64,000 bases of DNA, taken from assembly GCA_946620695.1 (NCBI GenBank), contig CAMONU010000006.1, positions 17,479 through 81,478 on the forward strand, read 5' to 3'. Both the position numbers and the translations under genes were made by a program. The notes beneath the pieces are model-generated. The model worked only from the letters and a program-made list of their open reading frames with translations, was not told where the DNA came from and searched no databases. The stretch comes from an uncultured Lachnospiraceae bacterium (lineage in GTDB: Bacteria; Bacillota; Clostridia; Lachnospirales; Lachnospiraceae). Positions 3,067 to 12,637 of this stretch are shown here, in pieces. Position 1 is the stretch's first letter, and every line of letters starts with the position of its first letter.

Positions 3067-4686
3067 ATGAAAAAACAGCTTTTAGCGGCACTTTTTTCAG
3101 CAGCGCTTGCGGCGTCGGCATTTTCAGTATGCGCTCAGGCGGAGGAACTGACCGACGGAAAATTCGCGGAGACGAAGCACATTACCGTCGAAGTCTATGA
3201 CCGCGGAATTGACGGCGGATCTGATGTGACCAACAACATGTATACTGAGTATATCAAGAAGGGCATGCTTGAAGATCACAATGTGGAGGTTGAGTTTGTC
3301 GCTGTTCCCAGATGGACCGAGGTTGAACAGATCAACAACCTGCTGGCGGCGGGAAGTGCCCCGGATCTCTGCGTAACCTATGACCTGCCTACCATCAAGA
3401 CTTATTCCGCGATGGGCGGCGTCATCGACATGAGTGAAATGGTGGAGACTTACAGGGATGAGCTGCCGAATCTCTGGAACTGGCTGACCGAGACCAATAT
3501 CTACTGGGACAAGGATCCGGGAACCGGAGAGCTTTACGATATCGAGACCAAGCTCGCCAACCAGAACCGTACGAACTGCTTTGTCCGCAGAGACTGGCTG
3601 GATAAGCTGGGCATCGAAGCTCCGACCACAAGGGAAGAGTTCTACAACATGCTCTGCGCTTTCCGTGATAATGCGGAGACTCTGCTCGGCGATGACGCCG
3701 ACAAGATGATTCCTTTCTCCGTCAGCTATGACGTAGGCTGGAGAGCATCCACTCTGATCGAGTCCTTCCTGGATCCGGAGATGTCCGACAAGGAATTCTA
3801 TGTAAACGGCTTTGACGACAGAAAAACGACCCAGAATGGCGTGAGAGATGCCATCGAACTTCTGAATACCTGGTACAACGAAGGCCTTATGTGGAAAGAT
3901 TTCGCTCTTTACACCGCCGGCGATACCACAGAGGATGACATGATGAAAGCCGGCTATGTCGGCGCATTCATCCACAACTGGGATTATCCTTACAGAAACG
4001 GCGCGGATTCCATCCAGGCCAACCTTCAGAGACTGGTCGGTGAAGACGCCGCTTATGTGGCAATCGATCCGTTTGAGGACAAGAACGGAACCCATACAAA
4101 ATGGATCGCGGGACCGGTTGACAGAAAAGTATTCTTCCCGATCACCAACGAAGAGCCTCTGGCCTGCCTGCTTTACCTTGACTGGCTGAGCGTTCCGGAG
4201 CATCTGGAATATCTCCAGATCGGTGATGAGGGCGTGACCCATGAGAAGCTTGAGAACGGAGCAGTGAAGATCCTCGCCGCGACAGGCGACGCGATCCAGA
4301 ATTCCGGCTTCAATATCGACTATACGCTGACCTGCAACGGCCTGCATCTGGTCGATGACGAGCAGACCGCTCTGTCCATCGCTTACAGCTACGCGGAAGT
4401 GGATCCGGAGCTGGTTGAGATCGCGAATGCGGTGGCAAAGGTTGATACCCGCGAGGCCAAGAATGCGAACTGCGGAACCATCGAAGCGGAAAACGGCATG
4501 ACCGAGACCCTGAACAGCAAGAGAGACATCCTTCTGGATACCTCTGTCAGCGCGGCACCGGATGCTTTCGCGGCTACCTTCGACAATGCGATGGCGGATT
4601 ATCTCGGATCCGGCGGACAGGCGATCATGGACGAGCGTGCCCAGAAATGGGAGGCAACCTACGGCGATGCGGATATGCTTCCGTAA
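3067..4686 (+). CDS. Carbohydrate ABC transporter extracellular solute-binding protein
   Basis: Signal peptide, acidic 539-aa protein, RRDWLDKLGIEAPTTREEFYNML motif typical of LplA-type SBPs; follows two permeases. Confidence 0.9.
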   Translation: MKKQLLAALFSAALAASAFSVCAQAEELTDGKFAETKHITVEVYDRGIDGGSDVTNNMYTEYIKKGMLEDHNVEVEFVAVPRWTEVEQINNLLAAGSAPDLCVTYDLPTIKTYSAMGGVIDMSEMVETYRDELPNLWNWLTETNIYWDKDPGTGELYDIETKLANQNRTNCFVRRDWLDKLGIEAPTTREEFYNMLCAFRDNAETLLGDDADKMIPFSVSYDVGWRASTLIESFLDPEMSDKEFYVNGFDDRKTTQNGVRDAIELLNTWYNEGLMWKDFALYTAGDTTEDDMMKAGYVGAFIHNWDYPYRNGADSIQANLQRLVGEDAAYVAIDPFEDKNGTHTKWIAGPVDRKVFFPITNEEPLACLLYLDWLSVPEHLEYLQIGDEGVTHEKLENGAVKILAATGDAIQNSGFNIDYTLTCNGLHLVDDEQTALSIAYSYAEVDPELVEIANAVAKVDTREAKNANCGTIEAENGMTETLNSKRDILLDTSVSAAPDAFAATFDNAMADYLGSGGQAIMDERAQKWEATYGDADMLP

Positions 4687-6719: not shown

Positions 6720-6860
6720 TGCCGCGGGATATCTTTTAAGAGTCGACAGAATCAAATAATGCCGCGGGATATCTTTTAAGAGTTCGACAGAATCAAATAA
6801 ATGCCGCGGGGGATATGTTTAAGGGTATTGAAGCGCTTAGAAGCGCCGCGGGGATATAAG
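6719..6860 (+). repeat. Tandem repeat, 40-42-bp unit, two near-perfect plus two decayed copies
   Basis: ATGCCGCGGGATATCTTTTAAGAGTCGACAGAATCAAATA at 6719 and 6759; decayed starts at 6801 and 6845; begins on the ligase stop codon. Confidence 0.9.
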
Positions 6861-6881
6861 AAAATATGGGAGAGCAGAGTT

Positions 6882-7778
6882 ATGAGCATACATGCATTTA
6901 AGCGGAAAAGTGTCAAAGACCGTCCGGATGGAAAATATGTCAGGGATATCACGGGAATTCAGGCGCTCATGATGAATATCTATCCGAACCGGACGGATTC
7001 GGAGGTGTATCTGTCTGATCAGTTCGACGCTACGGAGCTGCTGAAATATCTGGAAAAGAAAAACGCGGAACATCCGGATTATAAGACGACCCTTTTCCAC
7101 TGCGCCTTGACTGCTCTTGCCAGAATGGTGAAGGAACGCCCGTATCTGAATCGTTTTATTCAGGGCAGGCGCATGTACCAGCGATATGAGATCAGCCTGA
7201 GTTTCGTGGCAAAGCGCTTTTTTAAGGATGGCGCGGAGGAAGCTCTGATGGTTCTGACGCCCTCCGATGAGGATACCCTGGATTCCATCAGCCGTCAGAT
7301 CGTGGGCGACGTGACGCAGATGAGAAAGAACCCGGCAAAGAAGACCGGGAGCGACGCGGTCATTGACAACCTGGCAAAGCTTCCGAGACCTTTGCTGATG
7401 CTGGTCAGCAAGCTGATCCGGATCCTGGATTTCTGGGGACATCTGCCTCATTTTGTCTGGGAGACCGACGTTAATTACTCCACGATCCTGGCCAGCAATC
7501 TGGGCTCGATCAAATGCCCGAGCGTGTATCACCATCTGAACAATTACGGGACCAATTCCATCATGGTTACCATCGGAACCCTCCACAAGGAGCAGGTGCT
7601 GATGCCGGACGGCAGCGTGCAGGTCCGGGACATGATCGATATCGGGGCAACTCTGGACGAGCGGATCGCCGACGGCTTTTATTTTGCAAGAAGCCTGAAG
7701 CTGATCAAGTATATCTTTGAAAATCCGGAGATTCTGGAGCAGCCCATCGGGACGCCTTCCGGCTTTGAATATAAATAA
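6882..7778 (+). CDS. Stand-alone 2-oxoacid dehydrogenase E2-like (CAT-fold) acyltransferase domain protein
   Basis: SNLGSI and DERIADG (variant of DHRxxDG) motifs; no lipoyl domain; ATG 6882 chosen over 6801, which lies inside the repeat. Confidence 0.7.
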   Translation: MSIHAFKRKSVKDRPDGKYVRDITGIQALMMNIYPNRTDSEVYLSDQFDATELLKYLEKKNAEHPDYKTTLFHCALTALARMVKERPYLNRFIQGRRMYQRYEISLSFVAKRFFKDGAEEALMVLTPSDEDTLDSISRQIVGDVTQMRKNPAKKTGSDAVIDNLAKLPRPLLMLVSKLIRILDFWGHLPHFVWETDVNYSTILASNLGSIKCPSVYHHLNNYGTNSIMVTIGTLHKEQVLMPDGSVQVRDMIDIGATLDERIADGFYFARSLKLIKYIFENPEILEQPIGTPSGFEYK

Positions 7779-7871
7779 AGCTTTTTCGGAGAATCGATTT
7801 TGCCGGGAGGGGAGAAGGGCTTCAGATCTTTCACGGTGTTTGAAAAAGTTTTTTTGGAAATGGCAGGAAAT

Positions 7872-8870
7872 ATGAGAAGAAAGATTTATGTTGTATCAAT
7901 TATGCTGGCCGCTGCCCTGTCCGGTTTTACACCTTCCTGCTTCAGCCTGAATGCGGCTGAAACGGAAATCGGACAGGAAAATGCTGTTGTCTCTGAAAAG
8001 AATTCAGAGAAGGCCAGGGTCAGTTACCTGGGCCCTGCCGGAACCTATACCGAGGAAGCCGCGCAGTTTTTCTTTCCGGAAGCGTCGGAGTTCCTCCCCG
8101 AAAGCACCGTCCCTGAGGCGATTGCGGACGCTGTGGAAGGAAGGTCGGATTATGCGGTCATTCCGCAGGAAAATACGCTGGGAGGCGCGGTAACAAATTA
8201 TATTGACGCCCTCATTGCCAGCGAAGACGTATATGTCGTCGGGGAAGTGATCCTGCCGATCAGCCAGACGCTGATGGGACTTCCGGGGGCCTCTCTTGAT
8301 GAGATCCGTCTTGTCTGTTCCCATGCCCAGGGAATCAAGCAGAGCGAAACCTGGAGGAAAGAACATCTGCCGGATGCGGATACGCAGGAGATGGACAGCA
8401 CGGCCGCGGCGGCAAGTTATGTCGCAGAGAGCAAAGATCAGACGATAGCCGCGGTTGCCGCCCCGGGTGCGGCGAAGCTGTACGGTCTTTCTGTCCTGGC
8501 GGAGAATGTGCAGATTACGGATGCGAATAAGACCCGTTTTTATGTGCTCTCATCCTCACGGCCGGAGTCTGAAAACCACACGCATGCAGTCTTTGTTGCT
8601 TCCTGTGAGGCAAACAGAATAGATGATATCATCGTGGAGATTCATAACAGCGGGCTGGAATTTGTTACGATCCATGACCGGCCGGAAGGAAGTTATCTGG
8701 GCAGTTACCGTTATATCATCGAACTGGAAGACGAGGATGGAATCACGGAAGATGAACTGGCAGTGATTGAAGAAATTCCCGAACTGCGCTGCCTGGGAAG
8801 TTTTGACATGGTGGAGAAACAGAGTCGTTCTGCTGAAGAAAAAGAAGAGGAGCAGAATCCCGCAGGCTGA
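7872..8870 (+). CDS. pheA: Prephenate dehydratase (PheA-type, PDT plus ACT-like domain) with N-terminal signal peptide
   Basis: YLGPAGTYTEEAA, PQENTLGG, SHAQGIKQ, STAAAA, NKTRFYVL motifs; MRRK plus hydrophobic stretch plus LNA/AE at the N-terminus. Confidence 0.8.
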   Translation: MRRKIYVVSIMLAAALSGFTPSCFSLNAAETEIGQENAVVSEKNSEKARVSYLGPAGTYTEEAAQFFFPEASEFLPESTVPEAIADAVEGRSDYAVIPQENTLGGAVTNYIDALIASEDVYVVGEVILPISQTLMGLPGASLDEIRLVCSHAQGIKQSETWRKEHLPDADTQEMDSTAAAASYVAESKDQTIAAVAAPGAAKLYGLSVLAENVQITDANKTRFYVLSSSRPESENHTHAVFVASCEANRIDDIIVEIHNSGLEFVTIHDRPEGSYLGSYRYIIELEDEDGITEDELAVIEEIPELRCLGSFDMVEKQSRSAEEKEEEQNPAG

Positions 8871-9004
8871 TGAGCTGCCGGGAAACTGCCGGGAACGGAG
8901 ATAGAAATACGGCATAACCAGAATCAGTCTGATTATGCCGTTCTTTTTTTGAAACGCTGTCTGATTCAGAATATCCGGAACCAGACTTTCCGAACCGGAG
9001 TTTT

Positions 9005-9922
9005 TCAGCGCATCTGGTTGATATAGCGGCAGGCGGCCAGGGCGGCAGTGGCTCCGTCGGCGACGGCCGTCGTCAGCTGGCGGACACTCTTGCTGCGGCA
9101 GTCTCCGGCCACATAGATCCCGGGCGTCTTTGTCAGGCAGTTTTCATCCGAGTCGAAATATCCGAAGCTGTTCAGATCCGCAAGATCCTTAAAGGCGTCG
9201 TTCTCCGGGATCAGGCCGATGGCGACAAAGAGGCCGTCACAGGCGATGTCCGCTGTGTTTCCGCTGTCATTTTTCAGGATCCTTACACCTTTCAGTTCCC
9301 CGTTTTCAACGAGAAGATCCGTGATCTTTACGCCTGTGAAGTTTCTGACGTTTGATCTGGAGAAGAGAACCTTCTGCAGGGTTTCTTCCCCGGTAAAGAA
9401 GGCAAGATCCTGGAGCATGATTACCTCCCGGCACTTGTCCGCAAGGAGGATGGCCTCCTGAAGGGCGGAGTTGCCGCCGCCGGCCACGCATACGGTTTTC
9501 CCGCTGTAGAAATCTCCGTCACAGACAGCGCAGAAGGAGATGCCTTCCCCGACAAGCTCATTCTCGCCTTCAAGACCCAGCATGCGGTGCTTTACACCTG
9601 AAGCGAGGATGACGGAAAGGCCTTCGAAGCTGCTGCCTTCCTCCGTGGAGACAATCCAGTGACCGTCCTTCGGAAGCACGGATGTAACCTTTTCAAACTC
9701 AATCTCAGCGCCCTGGGCCAGAATCTGATCCAGGGTCCTGTCGGCGAATTCATTCCCGCTCATGGACAGGGTTCCGGGATAATTCTCCACTCTGGGAGAA
9801 TGGGTGATCTGTCCGCCGAAGCCATTTTTCTCAATAACCAGAACTGTCTTGCCGTTCCGCCTGGCGTAGAGCGCCGCGGTCATGCCTGCGGGGCCGCCGC
9901 CGACAACGATAATATCATACAT
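9005..9922 (-). CDS. trxB: Thioredoxin reductase (FAD/NADPH disulfide reductase)
   Basis: GGGPAG, CAVCDG redox motif, GGGNSA, AGDC, QLTTAVADG. Confidence 0.9.
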   Translation of the reverse strand: MYDIIVVGGGPAGMTAALYARRNGKTVLVIEKNGFGGQITHSPRVENYPGTLSMSGNEFADRTLDQILAQGAEIEFEKVTSVLPKDGHWIVSTEEGSSFEGLSVILASGVKHRMLGLEGENELVGEGISFCAVCDGDFYSGKTVCVAGGGNSALQEAILLADKCREVIMLQDLAFFTGEETLQKVLFSRSNVRNFTGVKITDLLVENGELKGVRILKNDSGNTADIACDGLFVAIGLIPENDAFKDLADLNSFGYFDSDENCLTKTPGIYVAGDCRSKSVRQLTTAVADGATAALAACRYINQMR

Positions 9923-9986
9923 GGGATCTGCCTCACTGAAGATTTCACGCTTTCCGGATAAACCGGAAAGCGTGAATACTGGGGGG

Positions 9987-12542
9987 TTATCGATTCATAA
10001 GCCATCCCTTGATCTCGGATACGCCTTTGAACTTGACGAATCCGTCCTGATCAATCAGAACAAGGGTCGGCGCCTGTTTTACACCGTATTTGCCGACAAG
10101 TTCTTTCTCCTCGTTGGCGTTCAGCGGTTCATAGTCCACGCCTGCCCGGTCAAGGAGCGCGCCCGCCGCCTTGCAGTTGGGACATGTGGGCGTCTTGAAG
10201 AGAAGGATCGTGGAGCCGGTCAGTCCGGAAGCGTCCCGGAGAGAATCTTCAGCTGCTGCGTTTTCAGTCGCTGCAGACTCAGACTGCGCTGCTGCAGTCC
10301 CGGCAGGAACAGAGTGCTGCATCTGTGCATCCGCAGCAGGAGCTGCCTGTGCTGCCGCTGCGTTCTCCGCAGGAGCTGTCTGCACTGATGTCGCAGCGTT
10401 CTCAGCAGGAGCTGCCTGTGCCGCCGGCTCACTGTCCACCGGCGCCGGAAGCGGTCCGGTATGGGTCAGGTGAGAATGGCCGATATTGTACACCAGACGG
10501 TCCTTATACTCCTGGGCCTTGCCGTCGTTCCAGTTCTGGACCGGACGGTAATAACCGGTGATGCGGCTGTAAACCTCTGTCTTCTGGCCGCAGATGGGGC
10601 AGGTGAACTGCTCGCCGGTCAGATAGCCATGGTCCTTGCAGACCGAATAGGTCGGGGACATGGTGTAGTAAGGCAGCTTATAGTTTTCCGCGATCTTGCG
10701 GACCAGGTTCGCAGCTGCTTTCCAGTCCGGAAGCTTCTCACCAAGGAAGGCGTGGAAGACGGTTCCCGAGGTGTAGAGGGTCTGCAGGTCGTCCTGAATA
10801 TCCAGAGCGGAGAAGATGTCTTCGCTGTATCCCACCGGAAGATGGGAGGAATTCGTATAGTAGGGCGTTCCGTTCATATTCGCGGTAATGATATCCGGGA
10901 ACAGCTCCTTGTCGTGCTTTGCGAAGCGGTAGGTGGTGGACTCTGCCGGCGTTGCCTCCAGGTTGTAGAGGTCGCCGTACTTTTCCTGATAGTCGGAGAG
11001 GCGCTTGCGCATATGGTTGAGCACGTCGCGCGTGAAGCGCTGTACCCGGGCGTCCGTCAGATCCGCGCGCAGCCACTTGGCGTTCAGTCCCACCTCGTTC
11101 ATGCCGATCAGGCCGATGGTGGAGAAATGGTTGCTGAAGGTTCCGAGGTACCTCTTCGTATAGGGATAAAGTCCCTGCTCCAGAAGCTTGGTGATGACCG
11201 TTCTCTTGGTCTTCAGGCTGCGGGCGGACAGATCCATGAGTTTGTCCAGACGGTCGTAGAAATCGGCCTCATCCGCCGCCAGGTAAGCGATTCTGGGCAT
11301 GTTGATGGTCACGACGCCGATGGAACCGGTTGACTCTCCGGAACCGAAGAAGCCGCCGGACTTCTTGCGCAGCTCACGCAGGTCGAGGCGGAGTCTGCAG
11401 CACATGGAGCGGACGTCGCTGGGCTCCATGTCCGAATTGATATAGTTGGAGAAATACGGAGTGCCGTATTTGGCTGTCATCTCAAAGAGAAGCTTGTTGT
11501 TCTCGGTTTCGCTCCAGTCAAAGTCCCTTGTGATGGAGTAGGTCGGGATCGGATACTGGAATCCGCGGCCGTTGGCGTCGCCTTCGATCATGATCTCGAT
11601 GAAGGCCTTGTTCACCATATCCATCTCTTTCTGACAGTCGCCGTAGGTGAAATCCATCTCCCTGCCGCCGATGATGGCCGGAAGGTTCTTCAGGTCGTTC
11701 GGGCAGGTCCAGTCCAGGGTAATGTTGGAGAAAGGCGCCTGCGTGCCCCAGCGGCTGGGCGTATTCACGCCGTAGATGAAGGACTGGATGCACTGCTTGA
11801 CTTCCCTCTGGGACAGATTATCCACCTTGACAAAAGGCGCAAGGTAGGTGTCGAAGGAGGAAAATGCCTGCGCGCCGGCCCACTCATTCTGCATGATGCC
11901 GAGGAAGTTCACCATCTGGTTGCAGAGGGTGGAGAGGTGGTTGGCGGGAGAGGATGTGATCTTCCCCGGAACGCCCCCGAGTCCTTCCTGGATCAGCTGC
12001 TTCAGGCTCCAGCCCGCGCAGTATCCGGTAAGCATGGAAAGGTCGTGCAGATGGATCGCCGCACTGCGGTGCGCCCTGGCGACTTCATCGTCATAGACCT
12101 CGCTCAGCCAGTAGTTGGCCGTGATGGCGCCGGAGTTGGACAGAATCAGTCCGCCCACGGAGTAGGTGACTGTCGAATTCTCCTTGACGCGCCAGTCATT
12201 GATCTGCAGATAGTTGTCGATGACTTCCTTGTAGTTCAGGAGCGCGGAATTGACATTGCGCACCTTCTCGCGCTGTCTGCGGTACAGGATATATGCCTTG
12301 GCGACATCCGAATAACCGGACTCGGAGAGTACCTTCTCCACACTGTCCTGGATGTTCTCAACCGTGATCTGCTCGTCGATGATCTTGCTCTCGAAATCAG
12401 ATGTCACATGCAGCGCGATCAGTTCGATCACGCTCGGATGATACTGTTTATCCAGTGCGCGGAATGCCTTGGTGATGGCATCCGTTATCTTGCTGATCTG
12501 AAATTCTACAATCTGACCGTCTCTTTTTACTACTTTATACAA
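9987..12542 (-). CDS. nrdD: Class III anaerobic ribonucleoside-triphosphate reductase with N-terminal ATP cone and C-terminal glutaredoxin/NrdH-like domain
   Basis: YKVVKRDG ATP cone, RSMCCRL finger loop, CKDH/CPIC Zn site, YSRITGYYRPV glycyl-radical motif, Ala/Pro linker, then TCPNCK redoxin; likely TTG start at 12542 behind GGAAGGGGG. Confidence 0.95.
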   Translation of the reverse strand: MYKVVKRDGQIVEFQISKITDAITKAFRALDKQYHPSVIELIALHVTSDFESKIIDEQITVENIQDSVEKVLSESGYSDVAKAYILYRRQREKVRNVNSALLNYKEVIDNYLQINDWRVKENSTVTYSVGGLILSNSGAITANYWLSEVYDDEVARAHRSAAIHLHDLSMLTGYCAGWSLKQLIQEGLGGVPGKITSSPANHLSTLCNQMVNFLGIMQNEWAGAQAFSSFDTYLAPFVKVDNLSQREVKQCIQSFIYGVNTPSRWGTQAPFSNITLDWTCPNDLKNLPAIIGGREMDFTYGDCQKEMDMVNKAFIEIMIEGDANGRGFQYPIPTYSITRDFDWSETENNKLLFEMTAKYGTPYFSNYINSDMEPSDVRSMCCRLRLDLRELRKKSGGFFGSGESTGSIGVVTINMPRIAYLAADEADFYDRLDKLMDLSARSLKTKRTVITKLLEQGLYPYTKRYLGTFSNHFSTIGLIGMNEVGLNAKWLRADLTDARVQRFTRDVLNHMRKRLSDYQEKYGDLYNLEATPAESTTYRFAKHDKELFPDIITANMNGTPYYTNSSHLPVGYSEDIFSALDIQDDLQTLYTSGTVFHAFLGEKLPDWKAAANLVRKIAENYKLPYYTMSPTYSVCKDHGYLTGEQFTCPICGQKTEVYSRITGYYRPVQNWNDGKAQEYKDRLVYNIGHSHLTHTGPLPAPVDSEPAAQAAPAENAATSVQTAPAENAAAAQAAPAADAQMQHSVPAGTAAAQSESAATENAAAEDSLRDASGLTGSTILLFKTPTCPNCKAAGALLDRAGVDYEPLNANEEKELVGKYGVKQAPTLVLIDQDGFVKFKGVSEIKGWLMNR

Positions 12543-12637
12543 AGCCGAATAGCCCCCTTCCATGTGTATGCACGGCGTTATGATCTTTGTACTGACCTCA
12601 GCCGTGCAGAATCAATGATAGCACCGGAGGGAGAATA

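What the first reader, a model, noticed from the sequence alone, without database searches (positions are those of the whole stretch)
7872..8870. PheA-type prephenate dehydratase carrying an export signal
Seen: MRRKIYVVSIMLAAALSGFTPSCFSLNA/AE precedes a PDT domain with an intact TRF motif and a diverged ACT-like domain, ending in an acidic tail. Established: PheA-type PDTs are cytoplasmic; the known exported cyclohexadienyl dehydratase (PheC) has a different, binding-protein fold and occurs in proteobacterial periplasms. Inference: an extracytoplasmic prephenate/arogenate dehydratase in a Gram-positive anaerobe, suggesting extracellular aromatic metabolism, cross-feeding or a repurposed ligand-binding role.
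Basis: partly seen in the sequence, partly recalled or inferred. Interest (0 to 1): 0.65.

Follow-up and report, generated by a model that had tools for sequence, protein, structure and literature searches.

The report
Exported PheA-type prephenate dehydratase family
This gut anaerobe has, besides its normal cytoplasmic enzyme, a second prephenate dehydratase with an export signal; it belongs to a large, apparently undescribed family of surface-tethered copies in herbivore-gut bacteria that keep the catalytic residues, have lost the usual phenylalanine-sensing motifs, and are often fused to secreted phosphatases.

Summary
Window 7872-8870 (+) encodes a 332-aa protein with five parts:
- a signal peptide (MRRK, then a 15-residue hydrophobic core, then LNA|AE);
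- a short linker;
- a full PDT domain (Pfam E 5e-53, TRF intact);
- an ACT-fold domain with altered ligand motifs;
- a non-conserved acidic tail.

The leader is not chance. 116 of 120 close homologues have one, and 96-107 of those are lipoprotein-type. None of 87 cytoplasmic PDT representatives has one. Exported copies form one clade (SH-aLRT 98). Residues ≥80% conserved in cytoplasmic catalytic domains are retained, apart from three conservative swaps and C158S. The Phe-site motifs are replaced (GALV glycine lost, ESRP→HDRP).

The genome also has a canonical CM-PDT, chorismate synthase and Lgt, but no Omp85 and no second chorismate mutase. The gene is patchy: 1 of 61 genera in the family and 7 of 20 species in the genus. 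Copies 59-68% identical occur in Solobacterium, Flexilinea and Lachnospiraceae from ruminant guts. It has no conserved neighbours.

A new point: the module is fused, in either order, to secreted HAD, histidine-acid, PTP-like and DHH phosphatases, and to VanX/VanY, GH3, MsrAB and acetolactate decarboxylase.

Best reading: a feedback-insensitive extracytoplasmic prephenate/arogenate dehydratase. Substrate and role are untested. I rate it a new variant of a known kind.

The parts
7872..8870 (+). Gene for the exported PDT-ACT protein (332 aa, P0001), stop codon included
   Evidence: ORF and translation. Pfam PDT E 5.2e-53. NCBIfam PRK11898 scores 202.5 bits, below the 219 cut-off.
7864..7867 (+). 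AGGA, a likely ribosome-binding site 4 nt upstream of ATG 7872
   Evidence: Read from the sequence. The orthologue's start aligns with ATG 7872.
7872..7955 (+). Signal peptide, residues 1-28: n-region MRRK, h-region IYVVSIMLAAALSGF, c-region TPSCFSLNA; putative cleavage at LNA|AE. Cys23 is a degenerate lipobox remnant.
   Evidence: Hydrophobicity and lipobox rules. Conserved in 116 of 120 homologues and absent in 87 of 87 cytoplasmic PDTs. No internal start codon. pLDDT below 50.
7956..8012 (+). Low-complexity linker, residues 29-47 (AETEIGQENAVVSEKNSEK)
   Evidence: Disordered in the model. In homologues the linker is 16-84 aa (median 25) and rich in A/S/E/T/G.
8019..8558 (+). PDT catalytic domain (two-lobed PBP-like fold), residues 50-229
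   Evidence: Pfam PF00800 covers residues 50-229. Foldseek top hits are the PDT structures 6vh5, 2qmx and 3mwb. Residues conserved in cytoplasmic PDTs are retained, apart from three conservative swaps and C158S.
8532..8540 (+). TRF catalytic motif (T221 R222 F223)
   Evidence: Present in the translation. 97-100% conserved in the exported clade and in cytoplasmic PDTs. The TRF triad is reported as critical for catalysis (PMC13217925).
8577..8816 (+). ACT-fold domain with remodelled ligand motifs, residues 236-315: CEANRIDD in place of the GALV region and HDRP in place of ESRP
   Evidence: Beta-alpha-beta-beta-alpha-beta topology in the AlphaFold model. The PRK11898 alignment runs to residue 315. 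Pfam ACT is not detected. Motif changes: the G248 position is G in 6% of exported copies versus 95% of cytoplasmic ones, E268 becomes H, and S269 becomes D.
8826..8867 (+). Acidic C-terminal tail, residues 319-332 (RSAEEKEEEQNPAG); not conserved
   Evidence: Absent from homologues in alignment A1. Low pLDDT.
8909..8941 (.). 14-bp hairpin with T-runs on both sides, a likely bidirectional terminator between this gene and the convergent trxB-like gene
   Evidence: Terminator scan. Sequence read.

Best explanation
This is an extracytoplasmic paralogue of PheA-type prephenate dehydratase.

1. Export (inferred from sequence, strongly supported). The N-terminal signal sends the protein through Sec. 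In most family members Lgt/Lsp lipidate the Cys of a lipobox, and a flexible A/S/E/T-rich linker tethers the enzyme to the outer face of the cytoplasmic membrane. In this protein the lipobox is degenerate, so it is either cleaved at LNA|AE and released, or held by its leader.

2. Catalysis (inferred from conserved residues, not assayed). The two-lobed PDT domain keeps the catalytic constellation of cytoplasmic PDTs, including the TRF threonine. It most likely still carries out the decarboxylative dehydration of a 4-hydroxy-cyclohexadienyl-1-carboxylate: prephenate to phenylpyruvate and/or arogenate to phenylalanine.

3. Regulation (inferred). The ACT fold is kept, probably for dimerisation. 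The GALV and ESRP Phe-binding motifs are replaced by other, equally conserved residues, so the enzyme should not be feedback-inhibited by Phe. It may bind a different effector.

4. Role (speculative). It is an accessory, horizontally mobile ecto-enzyme of herbivore-gut anaerobes. It would convert exogenous shikimate-pathway intermediates, leaked or released by lysis or from plant material, into an importable aromatic product. It sits alongside other scavenging ecto-enzymes, above all phosphatases, to which it is often fused.

It would be a Gram-positive functional analogue of periplasmic PheC that arose independently from the PheA lineage.
For: Domain and fold:
- PDT domain and TRF motif.
- The confident model matches solved PDTs over both domains, with TM-score about 0.7 normalised by query length and 0.82-0.85 by target length.

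The signal is conserved and specific to the clade:
- 116 of 120 close homologues have a leader and 96-107 have a lipobox.
- Every full-length representative I read, down to about 35% identity, has a signal.
- 0 of 87 cytoplasmic PDTs have one.
- 34 of 35 exported sequences sit on one side of a branch with SH-aLRT 98.

Catalytic residues are retained at 88-100% in the exported clade: G54, G57, P98, E100, N101, G105, D112, E125, S150, H151, Q153, Q157, T177, N219, T221, R222, F223.

Phe-site motifs are changed: the GALV Gly is lost, and ESRP becomes HDRP. The roles of these motifs are given in PMC13217925.

It is an extra copy, not a replacement:
- The own genome has a canonical CM-PDT with ESRP.
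- So do all 7 carriers in the genus.
- So do 5 of 6 other carriers.
- All carriers tested have a chorismate synthase hit, though in G101 only end fragments at contig edges.

Envelope: Lgt is present and Omp85 is absent.

Accessory and mobile:
- Present in 1 of 61 genera of the family and 7 of 20 species of the genus.
- Copies 59-68% identical occur in Solobacterium, Lachnospiraceae, Clostridia and Flexilinea from ruminant guts.

Ecto-enzyme company:
- Fusions behind one signal peptide to HAD, His_Phos_2, Y_phosphatase3, DHH, VanX/VanY, GH3, an esterase, MsrAB and ALDC.
- Adjacent HAD and Y_phosphatase3 genes.
- An amino-acid ABC importer operon.

Precedent: exported, feedback-insensitive CDT and CM enzymes occur in organisms that also keep cytoplasmic CM-PDT (PMC10520331).
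Against: - No activity, localisation or expression data exist.
- No secreted chorismate mutase is encoded; the genome has only one CM_2 domain. The source of extracellular prephenate or arogenate is therefore unexplained.
- There is no conserved neighbour to indicate a pathway.
- The very promiscuous fusion pattern fits a generic module (binding, regulation, scaffolding) at least as well as a pathway enzyme.
- The ACT-like region is as strongly conserved as the catalytic domain, which suggests it does more than dimerise.
- NCBIfam's equivalog cut-off for prephenate dehydratase is not reached: 202.5 versus 219 bits.
- This protein's own lipobox fails the rule.
Confidence: 0.55

Rival explanations
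1. A non-catalytic module. The exported PDT-ACT unit would be a surface ligand-binding, regulatory or scaffolding domain. It would use its PBP-like cleft or its ACT-like domain to bind a small molecule, and would deliver it to a transporter or sensor, gate the activity of fused ecto-enzymes, or simply oligomerise and tether them.
For: - PBP-type fold: after the PDTs, the next Foldseek hits are SsuA, TauA, MetQ and LysR effector domains.
- Lipoprotein tethering is the standard format of Gram-positive solute-binding proteins.
- One PDT-HAD gene overlaps the stop codon of an ABC ATPase in an amino-acid importer operon.
- The module is fused in both orders to more than 12 unrelated enzyme families, which is typical of a general-purpose module.
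- The ACT-like region carries its own strongly conserved motifs, HDRP and CEANRIDD.
- An HTH/receiver regulator lies directly upstream in one lineage.
Against: - The whole catalytic constellation, including TRF, is kept at 88-100% over a clade that has diverged to about 35% identity. A scaffold would not need this.
- ABC transporter genes are not consistently nearby.
- Binding and catalysis use the same cleft, so this rival is not cleanly separable without an assay.
Confidence: 0.25
2. The same fold with a new substrate. The enzyme would act outside the cell on something other than prephenate or arogenate. One option is an N-acyl-homoserine-lactone acylase like GqqA (quorum quenching). Another is activity on a plant-derived cyclohexadienyl or aromatic compound in the rumen.
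For: - GqqA (7am0), a PDT-fold protein with both AHL-acylase and PDT activity, is among the top structural matches, with TMq 0.72 (PMC8192741).
- An extracellular location suits diffusible signals or plant metabolites.
- Clade-specific invariant residues lie close in sequence to catalytic motifs: Y110, G104 and Y224.
- Some loci carry esterases, a MarR regulator and enoate-reductase-like genes.
Against: - By sequence the protein is much closer to bona fide PDTs (3mwb, 116 bits) than to GqqA (65 bits).
- GqqA is reported to keep only two of four PDT catalytic residues, whereas this clade keeps the full set listed.
- The aromatic-metabolism neighbours are anecdotal and not conserved.
Confidence: 0.15
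3. Artefact. The hydrophobic N-terminus would not function as an export signal, because of a wrong start or an N-terminal amphipathic helix, and the protein would be a second cytoplasmic PDT isozyme.
For: - No signal-peptide predictor could be run.
- The database gene call uses a different start, TTG 7800.
- This protein's own lipobox is degenerate.
Against: - There is no alternative in-frame start between the hydrophobic core and the domain.
- Positive n-region, 15-residue h-region and small residues at -1/-3 are all present.
- More than 100 homologues have textbook lipoboxes followed by low-complexity linkers.
- The feature tracks a monophyletic clade.
- Fusion partners are typical secreted enzymes placed behind the same signal.
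Confidence: 0.04

Closest known systems
Cytoplasmic prephenate dehydratase (PheA / P-protein PDT-ACT; Pfam PF00800; structures 3MWB, 2QMX, 2QMW, 6VH5)
   Same: Same two-domain architecture and fold. The TRF triad and the other conserved catalytic-domain residues are kept. These are the best sequence and structure matches.
   Different: It carries a Sec or lipoprotein signal plus a linker. It is 27% identical to the genome's own CM-PDT in alignment A1. The GALV and ESRP Phe-site motifs are replaced, and Pfam ACT is not detected. It falls below the NCBIfam equivalog cut-off. It forms a separate clade and is an accessory, patchily distributed gene with no link to aromatic-biosynthesis operons.
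Periplasmic cyclohexadienyl dehydratase PheC/CDT of Pseudomonas aeruginosa, and the exported CM-CDT / CDT-CM fusion enzymes (PMC10520331)
   Same: A shikimate-pathway dehydratase placed outside the cytoplasm. The host also has a cytoplasmic CM-PDT. Loss of feedback control is expected. The biological role is unknown.
   Different: PheC belongs to the SBP_bac_3 family and occurs in Gram-negative periplasms, often together with an exported chorismate mutase. The present clade derives from PF00800 and is mostly lipoprotein-anchored in monoderm gut anaerobes. No exported chorismate mutase is encoded here. Its fusion partners are phosphatases and other ecto-enzymes, not CM.
GqqA of Komagataeibacter europaeus (PDB 7AM0/7ALZ; PMC8192741)
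   Same: A PDT-fold (PBP domain plus ACT) protein whose relevant substrates are extracellular molecules. It is among the top structural matches.
   Different: No signal peptide is mentioned for GqqA. It keeps only part of the PDT catalytic residues and is a more distant sequence match at 65 bits. AHL acylase activity was not tested for this clade.
Gram-positive substrate-binding lipoproteins of ABC importers (PBP type II)
   Same: Lipobox signal, flexible linker, and a two-lobed PBP-like domain on the outer face of the membrane.
   Different: There is no conserved partner transporter. The protein retains an enzyme's catalytic motifs and has an added ACT-fold domain.

Membership tests
Prephenate dehydratase family (Pfam PF00800) | Significant match to the PDT domain model above the gathering score | tested here: met
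   180 bits versus a cut-off of 25.2, covering model positions 1-179 of 181.
Prephenate dehydratase family (Pfam PF00800) | TRF catalytic triad and the other conserved cleft residues | tested here: met
   T221-R222-F223 are present. Of the catalytic-domain columns at least 80% conserved in 87 cytoplasmic PDTs, all are kept in the exported clade except S102T, I122V, C158S and L162R.
Prephenate dehydratase, functional equivalog (NCBIfam NF008865 / PRK11898) | Score at or above the curated equivalog cut-off | tested here: not met
   202.5 bits versus a cut-off of 219, although aligned over model positions 2-280 of 284.
Phe-regulated PDT (ACT regulatory domain) | ACT fold with GALV and ESRP ligand motifs | tested here: not met
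   The fold is present. The motifs are not: the GALV Gly column is G in 6% of exported copies versus 95% of cytoplasmic ones, ESRP is HDRP, and Pfam ACT gives no hit.
Prephenate dehydratase activity | Conversion of prephenate to phenylpyruvate (or arogenate to Phe) | not testable with these tools
   Requires an enzyme assay or a complementation test.
Bacterial lipoproteins (Lgt/Lsp substrates) | Lipobox [LVI][ASTVI][GAS]C (PROSITE PS51257-type) after a positive n-region and a hydrophobic h-region | tested here: inconclusive
   P0001 itself fails because Pro is at position -2 of Cys23. The 84% orthologue P0003 and 96 of 121 family members pass. Lgt is encoded in the genome.
Sec signal peptide (SPase I type) | n-region, h-region and c-region with small residues at -3/-1 | tested here: inconclusive
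   MRRK, a 15-residue hydrophobic core and L-N-A|A are present by inspection. No predictor was available.
PheC-type cyclohexadienyl dehydratase (SBP_bac_3, PF00497) | Membership of the SBP_bac_3 family | tested here: not met
   PF00800 is the only Pfam hit at E up to 1.
GqqA-type AHL acylase | AHL amide hydrolysis; GqqA-like cleft residues | not tested
   Only structural similarity was seen (7am0, TMq 0.72). Sequence similarity to GqqA is weaker than to PDTs.

The most novel reading that the evidence does not exclude
The exported PDT-ACT unit would be a previously unrecognised general-purpose extracellular module of anaerobic gut bacteria. It would be a ligand-gated (cyclohexadienyl or aromatic metabolite-sensing) regulatory or capture domain that controls or feeds the ecto-enzymes it is fused to or co-occurs with: four unrelated phosphatase superfamilies, cell-wall peptidases, GH3, MsrAB and acetolactate decarboxylase. 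That would amount to allosteric control of enzymes outside the cell, or an organised surface 'metabolite salvage' machinery, built on a recruited biosynthetic enzyme.
Probability: 0.2. Interest if true: 0.85.

Novelty: new variant of a known kind. Interest (0 to 1): 0.62.

Why it matters
Exported shikimate-pathway enzymes are a small and unexplained group. So far they comprise periplasmic AroQ chorismate mutases, PheC-type dehydratases and a handful of CM-CDT fusions, all in Gram-negatives (PMC10520331).

This finding adds an independent origin of the same idea. The PheA-type enzyme itself has been sent outside in monoderm gut anaerobes. It forms a large clade of at least about 50 clusters at 50% identity, with hundreds of sequences. 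The clade is mobile across phyla in ruminant guts and is repeatedly fused to secreted phosphatases.

- It gives a tractable handle on what prephenate or arogenate chemistry is for outside cells: salvage, cross-feeding, signalling or competition.
- It has a practical consequence. Annotation pipelines label these proteins 'prephenate dehydratase', so metabolic reconstructions may count an extracellular protein as the Phe-biosynthetic step. In the Solobacterium MAG it is the only PDT detected.

Tried and rejected
1. Conserved gene neighbourhood. An all-vs-all BLAST of ORFs from 14 loci found only the PDT gene shared. Pfam-annotated contexts from 11 look-ups show no recurrent partner. The exceptions are lineage-specific: an amino-acid ABC operon (L100), divergent HAD and Y_phosphatase3 genes (L101/L108), an HTH/receiver regulator (L102), and MarR plus an alpha/beta hydrolase (L110).
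2. The window's upstream genes are an acyl-CoA synthetase and a 2-oxoacid_dh-like acyltransferase. NCBIfam gave only generic fatty-acid-CoA-ligase similarity, so no link to aromatic metabolism emerged.
3. An extracellular chorismate-to-prephenate step is rejected. The only CM_2 domain in the genome is in the cytoplasmic P-protein.
4. Replacement of the cytoplasmic enzyme is rejected. Both copies are present in 7 of 7 genus carriers and in 5 of 6 other carriers.
5. Tat export is unlikely. The RR in MRRK is not conserved; homologues have KRK, KKK or KR.
7. The PDT structure paper PMC3366492 is not held. The fold statement therefore rests on PMC8192741 and on Foldseek.
8. Literature searches for exported, lipoprotein or surface prephenate dehydratases found no description of this clade. 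The library is not exhaustive.
9. P0378 (HTH + receiver + PDT) looks like a merged gene call with the upstream regulator. I did not treat it as a real cytoplasmic fusion.
10. The phyletic link to the secreted HAD is only suggestive: 7 of 7 PDT-positive versus 6 of 13 PDT-negative genus members, Fisher one-sided p = 0.022. The test ignores phylogeny and MAG incompleteness.
Full report
**1. What is in the window**

- Pfam finds one domain, PDT (PF00800), at residues 50-229, E 5.2e-53.
- NCBIfam's prephenate dehydratase equivalog PRK11898 aligns over residues 48-315 (model positions 2-280 of 284). It scores 202.5 bits, just under its 219-bit cut-off.
- The N-terminus is MRRK, a 15-residue hydrophobic core (IYVVSIMLAAALSGF) and TPSCFSLNA|AE. 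A 19-residue low-complexity linker follows.
- In the first 60 codons the only in-frame start codons are codon 1 and codon 11, which lies inside the hydrophobic core. A product containing the PDT domain therefore cannot avoid the leader.
- The database gene call starts further upstream, at TTG 7800. The 84%-identical orthologue starts at the position of ATG 7872, which has an AGGA 4 nt upstream.
- A 14-bp hairpin with T-runs at 8909-8941 separates the gene from a convergent trxB-like gene.

An AlphaFold model built on a 28-sequence alignment is confident for residues 48-318 (mean pLDDT 84.9). The signal, linker and acidic tail are disordered. Residues 236-315 form a beta-alpha-beta-beta-alpha-beta ACT fold.

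Foldseek's best PDB matches are the prephenate dehydratases 6VH5, 2QMX, 3MWB and 2QMW, plus the PDT-fold acylase GqqA (7AM0). Periplasmic binding proteins and LysR effector domains follow.

**2. The leader is conserved and defines a clade**

Close homologues:
- Of the 120 best homologues (64-84% identity), 116 have a hydrophobic N-terminal stretch ahead of the invariant VSYLGPxGTYTEE start of the domain.
- 107 have a loose lipobox and 96 of 121 satisfy a PROSITE-style lipobox rule.
- Most failures are truncated start calls, or Sec-type leaders such as the one here.
- P0001 itself fails the lipobox rule because of a Pro at -2 of Cys23. Its 84% orthologue passes.
- The linker after the Cys is 16-84 residues (median 25) and rich in A/S/E/T/G.

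Distant homologues: an exhaustive HMMER search of 1.84 billion representatives shows the same pattern. Every full-length representative I read, down to about 35% identity, carries a lipobox or an AxA-type signal.

Separation from cytoplasmic PDTs:
- A profile of the mature family scores the exported proteins 263 bits or more.
- Cytoplasmic ones score 222 or less. They start directly at the domain or carry a chorismate mutase domain.
- None of the 87 cytoplasmic representatives has such a leader.
- In a quick maximum-likelihood tree of 122 sequences, 34 of 35 exported proteins lie on one side of a branch with SH-aLRT 98. The genome's own cytoplasmic enzyme nests among CM-PDT proteins.

**3. Catalytic domain intact, regulatory site remodelled**

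I compared 33 exported with 87 cytoplasmic sequences column by column.

- Kept in the exported clade at 88-100%: G54, G57, A63, P98, E100, N101, G105, D112, E125, L134, S150, H151, Q153, Q157, T177, A178, N219 and the T221-R222-F223 triad. All are at least 80% conserved in cytoplasmic catalytic domains.
- Catalytic-domain differences: S102T, I122V and L162R (conservative), and C158S (Cys in 83% of cytoplasmic sequences, 0% of exported).
- ACT-domain differences: the glycine of the GALV region is G in 95% of cytoplasmic but 6% of exported sequences. ESRP becomes HDRP. F281Y, D284E and G287 are also changed.
- Clade-specific conserved residues are Y110, G104, Y224 and H268.

The literature describes TRF as critical for catalysis and GALV/ESRP as the motifs behind Phe-dependent open and closed states (PMC13217925). 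The simplest reading is an enzyme that is still catalytically competent but has lost canonical Phe feedback. The new ACT motifs are themselves strongly conserved, so that domain probably still does something.

**4. Genomic and ecological setting**

The own genome (3.0 Mb, 91% complete):
- It has a canonical 376-aa chorismate mutase-PDT-ACT with ESRP on another contig.
- It has chorismate synthase and Lgt.
- It has no Omp85 and only that one CM_2 domain.
- It is therefore a monoderm organism that appears to have the Phe biosynthetic route and encodes no exported chorismate mutase.

Other carriers:
- All seven species of the genus that carry the exported gene also have the canonical one.
- So do five of six carriers from other taxa. 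The Solobacterium MAG shows only the exported copy.

Distribution:
- Present in 1 of 61 genera sampled from the family.
- Present in 7 of 20 species of the genus, at only 61-84% identity.
- Copies 59-68% identical occur in MAGs named Solobacterium (goat jejunum), Lachnospiraceae (RUG, rumen), Clostridia and Flexilinea (Chloroflexota). More distant ones occur in Coriobacteriaceae and Butyrivibrio.
- This pattern points to an accessory gene exchanged among herbivore-gut anaerobes.

Context:
- No neighbour is conserved. An all-vs-all comparison of 14 loci shares only the PDT gene.
- Pfam-annotated contexts differ from lineage to lineage.
- In the window the upstream genes are a generic acyl-CoA synthetase and a 2-oxoacid_dh-like acyltransferase.

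**5.

Long representatives turned out to be fusions, so I searched specifically for long proteins carrying this PDT type. 131 clusters reached E of 1e-60 or better. Counting by hand from the precomputed Pfam column of the 120 listed:
- About 75 carry a HAD-IB-like phosphatase domain (PF12710).
- 11 carry a histidine acid phosphatase (PF00328; Agp/AppA-like by NCBIfam). One has both.

Other partners:
- a PTP-like Y_phosphatase3, which is also present in a species of the same genus (L096);
- DHH/DHHA2 (Mn-pyrophosphatase-like);
- VanX-type M15 plus HAD;
- VanY;
- GH3 (one cluster with 231 members);
- an alpha/beta hydrolase;
- AhpC/redoxin;
- MsrA-MsrB;
- alpha-acetolactate decarboxylase;
- a SecDF-P1-head domain;
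- DUF218 + DUF3089 + HAD;
- several unknown extensions, one with an NlpC/P60-like DCSG motif (my reading of the sequence).

The PDT-ACT unit can be N- or C-terminal. Every genuine fusion I read begins with a signal peptide or lipobox.

Further links to the phosphatases:
- The HAD partner also exists as separate secreted genes in the own genome (C11, 522 aa with a signal peptide, and C92).
- It is present in 7 of 7 PDT-positive and 6 of 13 PDT-negative genus members, and in none of 21 genomes outside the genus. Fisher one-sided p = 0.022, uncorrected for phylogeny and MAG incompleteness.
- In one lineage a PDT-HAD gene sits next to divergent HAD and Y_phosphatase3 genes.
- In another it overlaps the stop codon of the ATPase of an amino-acid ABC importer with tandem SBP_bac_3 domains.

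**6. Interpretation**

Export is as well supported as sequence analysis allows. I put it at about 0.95 for the clade. For this protein the mode (lipidated or cleaved) is open.

Function is inference.

I favour a catalytically active, Phe-insensitive ecto-enzyme acting on prephenate and/or arogenate, at 0.55. The cleft residues that define PDT catalysis are under the same constraint as in cytoplasmic enzymes across a deeply diverged clade. The situation also mirrors the exported CDT/CM enzymes of Gram-negatives: there too the host keeps a cytoplasmic CM-PDT, feedback regulation is absent, and the role is unknown (PMC10520331).

The fusion partners are nearly all enzymes that process small molecules or cell-envelope material outside the cell. 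This fits tethered scavenging enzymes arranged as beads on a string.

The main weaknesses are the unknown source of extracellular substrate and the promiscuity of the fusions. The promiscuity equally fits a generic binding or regulatory module (0.25).

A changed substrate, such as AHLs as for GqqA (PMC8192741) or plant-derived compounds, is possible (0.15). An artefact is unlikely (0.04).

**7. Known or new**

Searches of the held literature found exported chorismate mutases and PheC-type CDTs. They found no description of exported or lipoprotein PheA-type PDTs, nor of their phosphatase fusions. [quoted passage not shown]

Other first-stage readers of this scan flagged the same architecture in at least four other genomes. 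Those notes are unverified, but they agree with my finding that the family is recurrent.

I classify it as a new variant of a known kind: an exported cyclohexadienyl-type dehydratase, arising from a different protein family, in monoderms, and with new fusion architectures.

**8. Limits**

- No signal-peptide predictor was available.
- The tree is the quick version, not the careful search.
- The fusion tallies were counted by hand from the precomputed Pfam column.
- Taxon names come from MAG record titles.

Noticed in passing
P0123, P0124, P0125, P0127, P0276, P0320, P0338, P0344, P0347, P0353, P0354, P0368, P0379, P0380, P0382 (metagenomic proteins): The exported PDT-ACT module is fused behind one signal peptide, in either order, to four unrelated phosphatase superfamilies (HAD, His_Phos_2, Y_phosphatase3, DHH). 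It is also fused to VanX, VanY, GH3, an alpha/beta hydrolase, AhpC/redoxin, MsrAB, acetolactate decarboxylase and a SecDF-P1-head domain. HAD is by far the commonest partner, in about 75 of 120 clusters.
   Followed up: partly
L100:2349-10037: An apparent operon. It comprises a 1523-aa protein with tandem SBP_bac_3 domains fused to an ABC permease, then an ABC ATPase, then a PDT-HAD fusion whose start overlaps the ATPase stop codon. This is a possible link between the ecto-enzyme and amino-acid import.
   Followed up: no
L101:4031-8935 and L108 (syntenic): A PDT-HAD fusion gene sits divergent from stand-alone secreted-type HAD (PF12710) and Y_phosphatase3 genes. Feruloyl/acetyl-xylan esterase-like genes lie nearby.
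   Followed up: no
L102:6277-9145; P0378: An HTH_3 + receiver-domain regulator lies directly upstream of a PDT-His_Phos_2 gene. P0378 (HTH + receiver + PDT) is probably a merged gene call of such a pair, not a true fusion.
   Followed up: partly
G000:C11:19726-21288 (-) = L106:1051-2619; also G000:C92:23-976: The own genome encodes two secreted homologues (40-43% identity) of the HAD phosphatase that is fused to PDT elsewhere. One is 522 aa, with a signal peptide and an extra C-terminal domain of about 110 aa of unknown family.
   Followed up: partly
L007 / genome G096 (Solobacterium sp. MAG RGIG2523): Chorismate synthase is present, but the only PDT-domain gene detected is the exported one. 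This is either MAG incompleteness or a genome in which automatic annotation would wrongly credit an extracellular protein with the Phe-biosynthetic step.
   Followed up: partly
L110:3333-6963 (Butyrivibrio-type locus): FMN reductase, an alpha/beta hydrolase, a MarR regulator (overlapping the hydrolase by 8 nt) and the exported PDT lie on one strand. A BaiCD/enoate-reductase-like flavoenzyme and a LysR regulator lie upstream. This is a faint hint of aromatic or phenylpropanoid metabolism and is not conserved elsewhere.
   Followed up: no
window 9005-12563 (-): An anaerobic ribonucleotide reductase NrdD carries a C-terminal glutaredoxin/thioredoxin-like domain on an Ala/Gln/Glu-rich linker, next to a TrxB-like flavoprotein. 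This is already the subject of another finding in this scan.
   Followed up: no
window 6801-7778 (+): A stand-alone 325-aa protein matches only the C-terminal catalytic part of 2-oxoacid dehydrogenase acyltransferases (PF00198). It lies directly after an acyl-CoA synthetase and has no NCBIfam match.
   Followed up: no
window 3067-4686 (+): An unusually long (539 aa) solute-binding protein has only weak SBP_bac_8/SBP_bac_1 matches. It lies downstream of two ABC permease genes (1133-2977).
   Followed up: no
window 7800-7871: The database gene call for this protein (P0002, 356 aa) starts at TTG 7800, 24 codons upstream of the conserved ATG 7872. Orthologues support ATG 7872.
   Followed up: yes
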